64,000 nucleotides of DNA from Escherichia coli. Lineage in GTDB: Bacteria > Pseudomonadota > Gammaproteobacteria > Enterobacterales > Enterobacteriaceae. The position numbers were made by a program. This document shows positions 26,201 to 29,200 of this stretch, piece after piece; positions within the stretch are counted from its first letter, which is position 1, and every line of letters begins with the position of its first letter. The stretch lies in NCBI RefSeq assembly GCF_044324785.1, contig NZ_CP172128.1; one strand, 5' to 3'.

Positions 26201-29200
26201 TTTCTCCGCCGGCGCTTCCCCGTACGGAAGTCCGGCATCTCATTCACTAACTATGGAGATTATGCCATGAGACCATCAATTATCTTCGCAACCGCCGAGT
26301 ATGTAAAGCGTCTGCGTGAAGAGTGCCGGCGGGAGAACAAACCCCTGCACCGCCATACCCGCTTCAGACGCCAGGAACTGGCACCGGATGAGATTAACCC
26401 GGACGTCCTGGCGATGGGCGGTCATATCGCCAGACGCTGCAGTGAGCGGAAGCGGGTGCGTATCCCCGCCATGAAAGTCAGCGAATGGGGCCACCTGCTC
26501 CGCGCGCTTGAAATTGAACGGGTCTGCCACTGATTACCCCTTGCCGTCTGCCTGTGCAGGCGGCAGGATACGTTCAGACATCTCACCAGGAGGAACCGTG
26601 AGTAAGAAGAAAAACACCACAACGCCCACGCCGCATGATGCTGCGTTCCGGTCGTTCCTGGCGAATCCCGACGTCGCCAGAGATTTTCTGGAACTGCATC
26701 TTCCGGCGGAGTACCGGCAGTTGTGCGACCTGTCCACGCTGAAGCTGGAACCCGCCACCTTTGTTGAGCCGGACCTGCATCAGTACGCCAGCGATATCCT
26801 CTGGAGTGTGAAAACCACCGGGGGTGAAGACGGCTATGTTTATACGCTCATCGAGCACCAGAGCACCGAAAATCTGTACATGCCTTTCCGCATGATACGT
26901 TACAGTGTGGCGGCGATGCAGAGACATCTGGAGCAGCACAAAACATTGCCACTGGTGATTCCGGTGCTGTTCTATCATGGTGAGCGCAGCCCGTACCCGT
27001 ACAGCATGAACTGGCTGGACTGTTTTGAGGATCCGGCGCTTGCGGCTAAAATATACACAAAGCCGTTTCCGCTGGTTGATATCACTGTCGTTGATGACAA
27101 TGAAATCATGAACCATCGCCGGATGGCCGCACTGACGCTGCTGATGAAGCATATCCGCCATCGTGACATGATGGAGCTGCTGGACAAACTCCCGCAGGTC
27201 ATGGTGGAAATTTCAGACGAGCAGGTGCGTGTTCTGATTCATTACATCGTTAACGCAGGGGACTCTGTATCACCGGAATTTATGCGGGCGCTGGCTGAGC
27301 GTCTGCCGCAGCATGAGGATAAACTGATGACTATTGCCGAACGTCTTGAGCAGCAAGGAATACAGAAAGGAATACAGCAGGGAATACAGCAGGGAATACA
27401 GCAGGGAATACAGCAGGGAATACAGCAGGGAATACAGAAAGGCCGCATGGAGGAGAAGCAGGATATTGCGCGTCAGCTTCAGAAAACGGGAATGCCATCT
27501 GCACAAATCTGTCAGATCACCGGACTTTCCGAAGCTGAACTGAAGAACATCACTCACTGATGAGAACCACAAAGCCCGGCAAAATGCCGGGTTTTTTTGT
27601 CAGCAGGAGCAGAGCAAACAGCATGACGATTGCAGAACGTCTTGAGCAAAAAGGTCGCCAGGAAGGAGCGCTTGAAAAAGCCCTGGCCATTGCGTGCCAG
27701 CTTCAGAAAATGGGGATGACGCCGGAGCAGATTAAGCAGGCTACCGGACTGTCCGAAGCTGAACTGAAAAAAATCATTCACTGATGAGAGCATCACAGCC
27801 CGGCAGAATGCCGGGCTTTTTTGCCAGCAGGGGCAGAGCAGTATGACTATTGCAGAACGTCTTATACAGAAAGGTTTCGACGAGGGTTTTAAACAAGGTT
27901 TTAAACAAGGGGCTCTTGAAGTGGCGCGGGAAATAGCCTGCCGGCTGCGGGATATAGGCTGGCCGCCGGAACGGATTCAGGAGGTCACGGGACTTTCCGG
28001 TGAAGAACTGAAAAAGCTGTTTCCTGATGAGCAGTAGCCTGGCATTCAGCCAGGCTGTGAATCACCGCTCACACATCCTCTGCCGTTTCCCCCAGTTCAT
28101 TTTCCAGTCGCCTGATGATATCTGCCTTACGCATCCCCTGCATGTGAGGCAGCAGGTCACGGACTGAAAGAGCCTGGGTGGTCCTCCAGACGGTGACGTC
28201 CACCTGTTCCGCATTTTCCCAGGCGTGCCATGTTCTCTGCGTCACGCCAAATTCTCTGGCCGCTTTTTCGCGTGACCAGAGCATGCTTTTTCGCCAGATT
28301 CGCAGTTCCCAGCCGGTCATAAAACACCTTTGAAAAAGTGAAAAAACTTCACTTTATTTTATCATCATAATCATCAAATCAGCGCGATAAATAAGTGTAA
28401 AAAAATGAAGAAATTTCACTTTTTTTTGCTTGTAAATGTCGTGCGGTTTTCTCTGTTTTCACCTGTGCGGGAGTGGTGTGCCAGTGACCACCACATGCCA
28501 TTGTTGTGCCGTCGTTTTTCTTCAGTCGCGCCGTATGCGGCGCTCCCTGCACACCTTACGGTGTGTAAGGCCACTGCGCCTGATGGCGCAGCTGTCTCTG
28601 CCTGTCTGCCGCCGCACTGCGGCCTGTTCTCCGCAGACGGACTTTCCGGGGGTACATACATGACCACATCCCGTTTCAGTCGTCCAGGGGAGAGATGTAC
28701 CAGCCACAAAACTTTTTGCCGCAGGCGTCAAAAACTTTTGCGTCTGCCCCCGGACAACTGCCCCGTGACGTGGTGAGCGTCCCCCGTCGGAAAGGTCCAC
28801 TGCGGGGAAATCCCCGAAGACCCGGACGGCAGAAGGAGCTTCGCTCCTCCGGGAAATGACCTGGCTGACCCGGCAGTCGTGACGATGAGGAGACAATGTG
28901 ATGAATCAGACTTTACCCACTGCTGACCTGAATACTGCCGGCACGACAGATGTTATTCCGTCTGTGGCTATCGACCGCATCATCGCGCAGCGTAACGAAG
29001 GTATTGCACTGTTCATGCAGGCGATGGAATGCCTGGCGACAGCGCGCAAGATTCTGCTCGATGCGTCAGGTGATATTTTTCTTTACGGGTTTGAAGACTG
29101 CGTGACTGATTCCGTTCGTCGCATAGATAAACCGGAAGAAGCGAAAAGGAATATCACCCGTCTTGCCGACCGGAAAATCTGGGAGCGCCTGATGACAGAT

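What the first reader, a model, noticed from the sequence alone, without database searches (positions are those of the whole stretch)
27357..27440. Seven-copy 12-bp tandem repeat inside the rpn-like gene encoding a (GIQQ)n linker
Perfect short tandem repeats inside a coding region are prone to slipped-strand gain or loss of units in multiples of 12 bp (in-frame). That would vary the spacer between the nuclease domain and the C-terminal module. Stand-alone copy 2 has a different repeat (FKQGFKQG) at the same position, consistent with a repeat-driven hypervariable linker. The minus-strand ORFs over this region (CIPCC..., LLYSLL...) are repeat artefacts.
Basis: seen in the sequence. Interest (0 to 1): 0.5.

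Follow-up and report, generated by a model that had tools for sequence, protein, structure and literature searches.

The report
Variable four-residue repeat in Rpn antitoxin helix
The 12-bp repeat is real and its copy number does vary between otherwise identical plasmids, but it is the already published "four-amino-acid repeat" in the helix shared by an Rpn nuclease toxin and the small antitoxin nested inside its gene, so this is a clean new example of a known thing.

Summary
Window 27357-27440 encodes seven in-frame GIQ(Q/K) units: five perfect CAGCAGGGAATA copies flanked by two variant copies. They lie in an Rpn-family (YhgA-like, PF04754) nuclease gene at 26598-27560, in the leading region of an IncK2/Z conjugative plasmid.

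Plasmids whose flanks are identical (201/201 and 160/160 nt) differ only in the number of perfect units. Alleles with 2, 3, 4, 5, 6, 7, 8 and 9 units exist, and every change inside the array is a multiple of 12 bp.

The "linker" label is imprecise. The array starts 10 residues after a conserved internal Met (ATG 27327, GAGGA 7 nt upstream). It falls inside the region that aligns with helix 1 of the RpnA-S crystal structure (7TH0). AlphaFold2 predicts it as part of one continuous 60-residue helix.

This matches Zhong et al. 2023 (PNAS). In that work RpnS, translated from an internal start, is the antitoxin of full-length RpnL. The number of four-residue repeats varies among strains, and RpnS and RpnL must carry the same number for inhibition. 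The two downstream small ORFs are stand-alone RpnS copies and are also repeat-variable.

Verdict: already known, low interest.

The parts
26598..27560 (+). rpnL: full-length Rpn-family PD-(D/E)XK nuclease (320 codons, GTG start, AGGAGG 5 nt upstream)
   Evidence: Annotated CDS in the 100% identical plasmid NZ_CP100531.1. PF04754 E 3e-78. TIGR01784 191 bits against a cutoff of 52. Start-codon context.
27315..27329 (+). Internal translation start: GAGGA (27315-27319), 7-nt spacer, ATG (27327-27329), giving Met244 of RpnL
   Evidence: Read from the sequence. The Met is nearly invariant and the following Thr and Ala are invariant in 105 homologues. Both stand-alone copies begin at the homologous Met. 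Actual translation from this site is inferred from Zhong et al. 2023.
27327..27560 (+). Nested rpnS ORF (77 aa): putative antitoxin, same frame as rpnL
   Evidence: Aligns with the RpnA-S crystal chain 7th0_A in two segments that bracket the repeats. Homologues carry PF27070 on this region.
27357..27440 (+). Seven 12-bp units encoding GIQK-(GIQQ)5-GIQK. The DNA periodicity runs from 27351 to about 27442.
   Evidence: Copy number is polymorphic among plasmids.
27575..27599 (+). Intrinsic terminator-like hairpin CCCGGCAAAATGCCGGG followed by T7, after rpnL/S
   Evidence: Read from the sequence. The scan reported this hairpin on the minus strand only; the plus-strand reading rests on the T run seen in the sequence.
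27623..27784 (+). Stand-alone RpnS copy 1 (53 aa from the homologous Met, one GRQE unit). The annotated ORF starts earlier, at 27560.
   Evidence: TIGR01784 C-terminal region, E 1.4e-9. Alignment of the three modules. The whole module is a 220-bp presence/absence polymorphism. Its tail is of the type that sits in-gene in other plasmids.
27797..27822 (+). Second terminator-like hairpin, after stand-alone copy 1
   Evidence: plus strand, 9-pair stem followed by a T run.
27843..28037 (+). Stand-alone RpnS copy 2 (64 aa) with GFDE-GFKQ-GFKQ. The 12-bp repeat is at 27885-27910.
   Evidence: 324 database relatives were found; the 120 listed are all 106 aa or shorter, and the 104 that could be scored carry 2-6 units.

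Best explanation
The repeat is the hypervariable four-amino-acid repeat of an RpnL/RpnS gene-within-a-gene toxin-antitoxin and antiphage module.

The gene at 26598-27560 encodes a PD-(D/E)XK DNA endonuclease, RpnL. A second product, RpnS (77 aa), is made in the same frame from ATG 27327 and neutralises RpnL by pairing through its long first helix. The GIQ(Q/K) units sit in that helix, in both proteins at once.

From ideal helix geometry (my own calculation, not a tool result), each 12-bp unit gained or lost lengthens or shortens the helix by about 6 Angstrom and about 40 degrees. Because both products come from the same DNA, toxin and antitoxin always stay matched to each other. They become mismatched to Rpn alleles, stand-alone RpnS copies or hypothetical phage mimics that carry other counts.

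Unit number changes quickly, by replication slippage or unequal recombination between identical units.

Shown here: the anatomy, the polymorphism, the homology and the predicted helix. Taken from the literature: translation of RpnS, its antitoxin activity, the need for matched repeat number (tested there on RpnC), and phage defence (tested there on plasmid-borne RpnP2). Inferred: that these properties hold for this particular allele, and how units are gained or lost.
For: Family and position:
- Rpn family by Pfam and NCBIfam.
- Conserved Met with a Shine-Dalgarno sequence 10 residues before the repeats.
- Against 7th0_A (RpnA-S), query residues 1-14 match chain 1-14 and query 37-73 match chain 9-45, so the repeats are an insertion within the segment that aligns to the first residues of RpnA-S; Zhong et al. 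place that insertion point in helix 1.
- AlphaFold2 predicts helix 236-295 with block-mean pLDDT 89-94 across the repeats. A tethered dimer model has helix 3-53.

Polymorphism:
- Six loci with 201/201 and 160/160 identical flanks carry 3, 4, 5, 5, 6 or 7 perfect inner units.
- Spans in PLSDB imply 3, 5, 6, 7, 8 and 9 units in 11, 16, 10, 9, 1 and 1 records.
- Complete E. coli genomes add a 4-unit class. The protein database adds a 2-unit allele.
- A second allele class varies in GRME units, from 1 to 6. The stand-alone copies vary as well.
- Across 1.73 kb, L003 differs from the window by 7 substitutions, +24 bp in the array and one 1-bp intergenic indel at 28065.

Literature:
- Zhong et al. 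2023 describe exactly this anatomy: repeats beginning 8-20 residues after the internal Met, dodecamer units, and downstream RpnSs copies. They also showed the dependence on matched repeat number experimentally.
Against: - No expression, toxicity or phage data exist for this allele.
- The match to 7TH0 is weak (E 0.0011).
- No convincing internal promoter was found. The only consensus hit is at 27025-27052, about 275 nt upstream of the internal start, and the number of promoter-like hits does not exceed that in shuffles.
- The matched-number rule was tested by the authors on RpnC with a single added unit, not on this protein.
- The nuclease domain is modelled with only moderate confidence (mean pLDDT 74), and a fold search with that model found nothing significant.
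Confidence: 0.85

Rival explanations
1. Passive, flexible spacer: the repeat only sets the distance between the nuclease domain and a C-terminal DNA-binding module, with no role in protein-protein recognition.
For: The array does lie topologically between the PF04754 domain and the helix-turn-helix-like C-terminal bundle. Zhong et al. themselves draw the analogy with the TAEL repeats of EcoR124I/II, which act as a ruler.
Against: It is predicted as rigid helix rather than flexible linker. It lies downstream of the internal start, so it is also present in the small protein, which has no nuclease domain. Stand-alone copies without any nuclease domain keep and vary the same repeats. Published data show that repeat number controls RpnS-RpnL inhibition.
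Confidence: 0.08
2. Neutral microsatellite-like instability: the 12-bp array expands and contracts by slippage simply because it is repetitive, and the protein tolerates this without any functional consequence.
For: The inner units are identical at the DNA level, and the counts form a contiguous series from 2 to 9. This is what mutation pressure alone would produce.
Against: Different unit sequences (GIQQ, GRME, GFKQ, GIEK and others) occupy the same position in different modules and in distant taxa, always with Gly every fourth residue. No out-of-frame length change was seen inside the array in about 50 alleles; the single 438-bp span is explained by 1-bp gaps outside the array. Published experiments show a functional effect of one added unit.
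Confidence: 0.05
3. Assembly artefact or a DNA-level element (for example protein-binding iterons) rather than a coding repeat.
For: Tandem repeats can be miscounted by assemblers, and 12-bp direct repeats can in principle serve as binding sites.
Against: The array is 84 bp, shorter than a typical short read (my own knowledge, not a tool result). Ten complete-genome records (nine in PLSDB) share the identical 7-unit allele, and other counts recur in multiple records. Periodicity is conserved at the peptide level while the DNA differs between modules.
Confidence: 0.02

Closest known systems
RpnL/RpnS intragenic toxin-antitoxin antiphage systems (E. coli RpnA-E, plasmid RpnP2; Zhong et al. 2023, PNAS, PMC10400941; RpnA-S structure 7TH0)
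   Same: YhgA-like nuclease domain. Conserved internal Met with a ribosome-binding site. A small C-terminal helical module. Four-residue (dodecamer) repeats starting 10 residues after that Met, with strain-to-strain variation in number. Stand-alone RpnS copies downstream. Plasmid location.
   Different: The unit sequence (GIQQ) and the count (7) are those of this allele. There are two stand-alone copies in tandem rather than one. The setting is the leading region of IncI/K/Z plasmids. Whether this is the RpnP2 allele of the paper could not be checked, because the paper's supplement is not held.
TAEL repeats in the HsdS subunit of type I restriction enzymes EcoR124I/EcoR124II
   Same: A four-residue repeat in a helical spacer whose copy number (2 versus 3) changes specificity. 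The Rpn authors cite it as an analogy.
   Different: It is an unrelated protein. There the repeat sets the spacing of two DNA-recognition domains and changes the target sequence. Here it tunes a protein-protein (toxin-antitoxin) interface. No homology was tested or expected.
GxxxG-repeat helices of FliH/YscL and the deca-GX3 motif of Yae1/Lto1
   Same: Gly at every fourth position along a helix. This produces weak profile hits to FliH models (E 7e-9 to 1.5e-5, far below their cutoffs) and to Yae1_N (E 0.37). Some database relatives are even labelled FliH. From my own knowledge, these motifs mediate helix-helix association.
   Different: The hits are due to composition and periodicity only. There is no flagellar or Fe-S context, and the scores are far below the family cutoffs, so this is a resemblance and not membership.
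Simple-sequence contingency loci (phase-variable genes)
   Same: A tandem repeat inside a coding region with a high rate of unit gain and loss.
   Different: The unit length is a multiple of three, so the reading frame is never lost. The result is graded length variation, not an on/off switch.

Membership tests
Rpn family (RpnL/RpnS nested toxin-antitoxin) | N-terminal YhgA-like PD-(D/E)XK nuclease domain | tested here: met
   PF04754 E 3.3e-78 over residues 10-206. TIGR01784 191 bits against a cutoff of 52.1.
Rpn family (RpnL/RpnS nested toxin-antitoxin) | Intact catalytic residues of the nuclease | tested here: inconclusive
   D65 and E85 are invariant, and H86 and Q87 nearly invariant, in 105 homologues, as expected of a D...E-x-Q type motif. 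They were not mapped onto the experimentally defined RpnA residues.
Rpn family (RpnL/RpnS nested toxin-antitoxin) | In-frame internal translation start giving a small C-terminal protein | tested here: inconclusive
   Sequence features are present: GAGGA, 7 nt, then ATG 27327, with the Met conserved in at least 90% of homologues. Translation itself is not testable with these tools.
Rpn family (RpnL/RpnS nested toxin-antitoxin) | C-terminal module homologous to the RpnS three-helix domain | tested here: met
   7th0_A (RpnA) E 0.0011, two collinear segments. PF27070 is precomputed on the tails of homologues. AlphaFold2 gives a long helix plus two short helices.
Rpn family (RpnL/RpnS nested toxin-antitoxin) | Four-residue repeats beginning 8-20 residues after the internal Met, with number varying among strains | tested here: met
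   The repeats begin at residue 11 of RpnS. Alleles with 2-9 units exist, and flanks are identical for the 5-9-unit alleles fetched.
Rpn family (RpnL/RpnS nested toxin-antitoxin) | RpnL is toxic, RpnS neutralises it, and the pair protects against phage | not testable with these tools
   Known only from experiments on RpnA, RpnB, RpnC and RpnP2.
Stand-alone RpnSs genes | A small gene downstream of rpn that is homologous to the rpn 3' end | tested here: met
   ORFs from 27623 and 27843 match the C-terminal end of TIGR01784 (E 1.4e-9 and 5e-6). The DNA of the three modules aligns from the ATG to the terminator.
Phase-variable contingency locus | Repeat changes shift the reading frame or promoter spacing to switch expression on and off | tested here: not met
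   The unit is 12 bp. All observed length differences inside the array are multiples of 12.
FliH / Yae1 GxxxG-repeat proteins | Score above the family threshold | tested here: not met
   FliH models give 24-35 bits against cutoffs of 180-293. Yae1_N gives E 0.37.

The most novel reading that the evidence does not exclude
The rpn block (an upstream pndC-annotated gene, a hypothetical gene, rpnL/S, and the two stand-alone RpnS genes) sits in the plasmid leading region directly behind an Frpo-like single-strand promoter hairpin. The stand-alone RpnS modules have repeat counts different from the in-gene one, and copy 2 was not seen fused to a nuclease in any of the 120 relatives listed. They could therefore act as early-expressed orphan antitoxins that neutralise Rpn toxins of the recipient cell or of competing plasmids. 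On this reading repeat number would be the address label, and whole modules would be shuffled by recombination at their conserved heads (ATGACnATTGCAGAACGTCTT). That would be an anti-defence cassette array rather than mere duplicates.
Probability: 0.12. Interest if true: 0.55.

Novelty: already known. Interest (0 to 1): 0.15.

Why it matters
It matters little beyond correct annotation. The rpn gene should be annotated as a nested toxin-antitoxin pair, and the downstream "hypothetical proteins" as RpnS-type small proteins.

The locus is a very clean natural series: 2-9 units, with identical flanks among the 5-9-unit alleles fetched, on widespread IncI/K/Z resistance plasmids (a related sequence is present in 1342 of 5426 complete E. 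coli genomes). It could be used to test the published idea that repeat number sets toxin-antitoxin specificity, and to measure how fast units are gained and lost.

Tried and rejected
- Foldseek against the PDB with the full-length model and with the tethered RpnS dimer model: nothing significant, best E 1.4 and 3.0.
- PADLOC: only a weak hit of the tail to 'C3a178 putative invertase', and no Rpn model in that library.
- Rfam over 20000-32000: no family.
- Promoter scan for an internal rpnS promoter: one consensus-level site far upstream, with hit numbers not above shuffles. Reading 26980-27340 by eye gave nothing convincing.
- The paper's supplement is not held, so I could not check whether this allele is RpnP2 or whether the GIQQ series is already figured there.
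- Literature search for later work on RpnS/RpnL found only the 2023 paper and its commentary.
- On/off phase variation was rejected because the unit is a multiple of 3.
- Assembly artefact was rejected because the same counts recur in many independent complete assemblies.
- The single odd span (438 bp, H79) was checked. Its 1-bp gaps lie outside the array.
- The tethered-dimer AlphaFold2 model cannot be inspected for inter-helix contacts with these tools, so it says only that the helix is continuous.

Full report
**1. Observation**

Tandem Repeats Finder finds one outstanding array in the window: 27351-27437, period 12, 7.2 copies, 96% matches, score 153.

The array lies in a plus-strand ORF whose product reads ...HEDKLMTIAERLEQQ-GIQK-GIQQ-GIQQ-GIQQ-GIQQ-GIQQ-GIQK-GRMEEKQ....

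Five inner units are identical (CAGCAGGGAATA). The outer two are CAGAAAGGAATA-type, and a degenerate unit precedes them. The longest period-12 self-match run is 57 nt, against at most 10 in shuffled windows. The repeat is real and not due to chance.

**2. What the gene is**

The 1.6-kb stretch 26508-28100 is 100% identical to E. coli plasmid pLH10-b-1-A (NZ_CP100531.1; IncK2/Z, conjugative).

The annotated CDS corresponds to window 26598-27560, with a GTG start and AGGAGG upstream. It is an Rpn-family recombination-promoting nuclease: PF04754 E 3e-78 and TIGR01784 191 bits.

The gene order around it is parB, psiB, psiA, a hypothetical gene, ardA, a pndC-annotated gene, a hypothetical gene, rpn, two small ORFs, an HTH gene on the minus strand, a DUF4942 gene, then mobC, mobA and the relaxase gene. 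This is the plasmid leading region next to the relaxase genes.

**3. Where the repeat sits in the protein**

- Ten residues upstream of the first unit is a Met (ATG 27327) preceded by GAGGA at a 7-nt spacing.
- In an alignment of 105 homologues this Met is at least 90% conserved, and the next Thr and Ala are invariant.
- The 77-residue tail from that Met matches PDB 7th0_A, 'Recombination-promoting nuclease RpnA' (49 aa), in two collinear pieces. Query 1-14 matches chain 1-14 and query 37-73 matches chain 9-45. The repeats are therefore an insertion within the segment that aligns to the first residues of RpnA-S.
- AlphaFold2 with the 105-sequence alignment predicts one uninterrupted helix over residues 236-295, with block-mean pLDDT 89-94 over the repeats. 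The nuclease domain is less confident (mean pLDDT 74).
- A tethered two-copy RpnS model again gives a 51-residue helix.

**4.

A 451-bp query around the array was searched against 72,556 plasmids. Among records with nearly identical flanks it found the following record spans.

| Span (bp) | GIQx units | Records in PLSDB | Records in complete E. coli genomes |
|---|---|---|---|
| 393-399 | 3 | 11 | 8 |
| 415 | 4 | 0 | 2 |
| 427 | 5 | 16 | 21 |
| 438-439 | 6 | 10 | 9 |
| 451 | 7 | 9 | 10 |
| 463 | 8 | 1 | 1 |
| 475 | 9 | 1 | 1 |

The two collections overlap heavily, so they are not independent samples.

I fetched representatives. The left 201 nt and right 160 nt are identical in L001-L005 and L009. 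The only difference is 3, 4, 5, 6 or 7 copies of the perfect unit, which is 5 to 9 units in total. L006 has 3 units in total, with a diverged right flank. Protein databases add a 2-unit and a 4-unit allele.

Across 1.73 kb, L003 differs from the window by only 7 substitutions, +24 bp in the array and one 1-bp intergenic indel at 28065. Repeat number therefore turns over on the same time scale as a handful of point changes.

Every length difference inside the array is a multiple of 12. The one odd span (438 bp) is explained by 1-bp gaps elsewhere in a probably error-prone or pseudogenised copy.

The condition that would have refuted the finding, invariant copy number, is clearly not met.

**5. 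The same holds for other modules**

- A second allele class carries GRME units at the same position, from 1 to 6.
- More distant homologues show degenerate runs such as GIEKGIQLGEQRGIEKGRHEGKLEGKLE.
- Stand-alone relatives from Treponema and Bacteroidia have 8 or more G-x3 units.

The periodicity (Gly, then usually a hydrophobic residue, then two polar residues) is conserved at the protein level while the DNA differs. This argues against a purely DNA-level role or a neutral one.

**6. The downstream ORFs**

The ORFs from ATG 27623 (53 aa) and 27843-28037 (64 aa) start with the same MTIAERL motif. They match the C-terminal end of the Rpn profile and align with the in-gene tail from the ATG through a terminator-like hairpin.

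Copy 1 is an exact 220-bp presence/absence polymorphism, window 27629-27848, absent from L002, L004 and L005. Its tail (…ALEKALAIACQLQKMGMTPEQIKQATGLS…) is the in-gene tail of the commonest IncI-type allele (P0001, with 3227 member sequences; also L007 and L008).

Copy 2 has 324 database relatives. The 120 listed are all 106 aa or shorter, so none is fused to a nuclease domain, and the 104 that could be scored carry 2-6 GFxx units.

**7. Comparison with what is known**

Zhong et al. 2023 (PNAS 120:e2307382120) report the following.

- All E. coli rpn genes have an internal start that yields RpnS.
- RpnS is the antitoxin of the toxic endonuclease RpnL.
- The RpnA-S crystal structure is a dimer of three-helix bundles joined through the long first helix.
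- Adding one unit to RpnC-S or to RpnC-L alone abolishes inhibition, and adding it to both restores it.
- Stand-alone RpnSs copies lie downstream of some rpn genes and can be lost or fused.
- Plasmid-encoded RpnP2 protects against T-even phages.
- The mechanism by which the 'dodecamer repeats' expand is left open.

Every anatomical feature of that description was tested here and met (see the membership table). The functional features cannot be tested in silico. Newer RefSeq annotations already label such downstream ORFs 'RpnC/YadD family protein' or 'Rpn/YhgA-type helix-turn-helix domain-containing protein'.

**8. Mechanism**

The most likely mechanism is as follows.

- The repeat lengthens the shared helix 1 by one unit at a time. 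By ideal helix geometry (my own calculation) this is about 6 Angstrom and about 40 degrees per unit.
- Because toxin and antitoxin are read from the same DNA, they co-vary automatically and stay cognate.
- They become insulated from Rpn alleles or RpnS-like proteins that carry other counts.
- The identical DNA units make +/-12 bp events frequent, by slippage or unequal exchange.

It misses that the segment belongs to the antitoxin and forms the recognition interface.

The alternatives (flexible linker, neutral microsatellite, artefact or DNA-level element, on/off phase variation) are each contradicted by the data above.

**9. Verdict**

The phenomenon is already published, and this is a further allele of it. 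Interest is low.

The most novel reading left open concerns the two stand-alone RpnS genes, which sit in a leading-region block behind an Frpo-like hairpin. They may serve as early-expressed orphan antitoxins directed at Rpn toxins of the recipient or of competing plasmids. I give this about 12%.

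Noticed in passing
window 25363-25650 and 28525-28815: A direct repeat of about 300 nt (88-96% identical in its best-matching blocks, one block 71%) brackets the block that runs from the pndC-annotated gene through rpn and the two RpnS copies to the HTH gene. As single-stranded DNA of the template (minus) strand, each copy folds into a long hairpin: -113.5 kcal/mol (z -9.95) and -96.4 kcal/mol (z -7.5). It looks like the Frpo/ssi single-strand promoters of plasmid leading regions, so rpn may be expressed early after conjugative entry.
   Followed up: partly
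window 27629-27848: Stand-alone RpnS copy 1 is an exact 220-bp (one module) insertion/deletion polymorphism between plasmids, and its tail type is the in-gene tail elsewhere. Modules appear to be shuffled by recombination at the conserved heads ATGACnATTGCAGAACGTCTT and at the terminator hairpins.
   Followed up: partly
window 27843-28037: The copy-2 type of RpnS module has 324 database relatives. The 120 listed are all 106 aa or shorter, so none is joined to a nuclease domain. No cognate RpnL with this tail was seen, so its partner is unknown.
   Followed up: partly
window 27327-28037 (the three RpnS modules): Small phage protein families of unknown function match the RpnS modules: phrog_5416 (66-position profile) and phrog_12274 (138-position profile), E down to 1.6e-12. 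This suggests that RpnS-like small proteins are also carried by phages or prophages.
   Followed up: no
window 28333-28358 / 28399-28424: A 26-nt inverted repeat (81% complementary, 40 nt apart) lies just upstream of the minus-strand HTH regulator gene (28069-28320). It is possibly an operator or a divergent promoter region.
   Followed up: no
window 28065: The window carries one extra base here, just past the 3' end of the HTH gene, relative to all eight related plasmids compared.
   Followed up: no
window 27575-27599 and 27797-27822: Terminator-like hairpins follow rpn and stand-alone copy 1. Copies 1 and 2 would therefore need read-through or their own promoters. Their ribosome-binding sites are weak or distant: AGGAG 13 nt upstream and GGGG 9 nt upstream of the respective ATG.
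   Followed up: no
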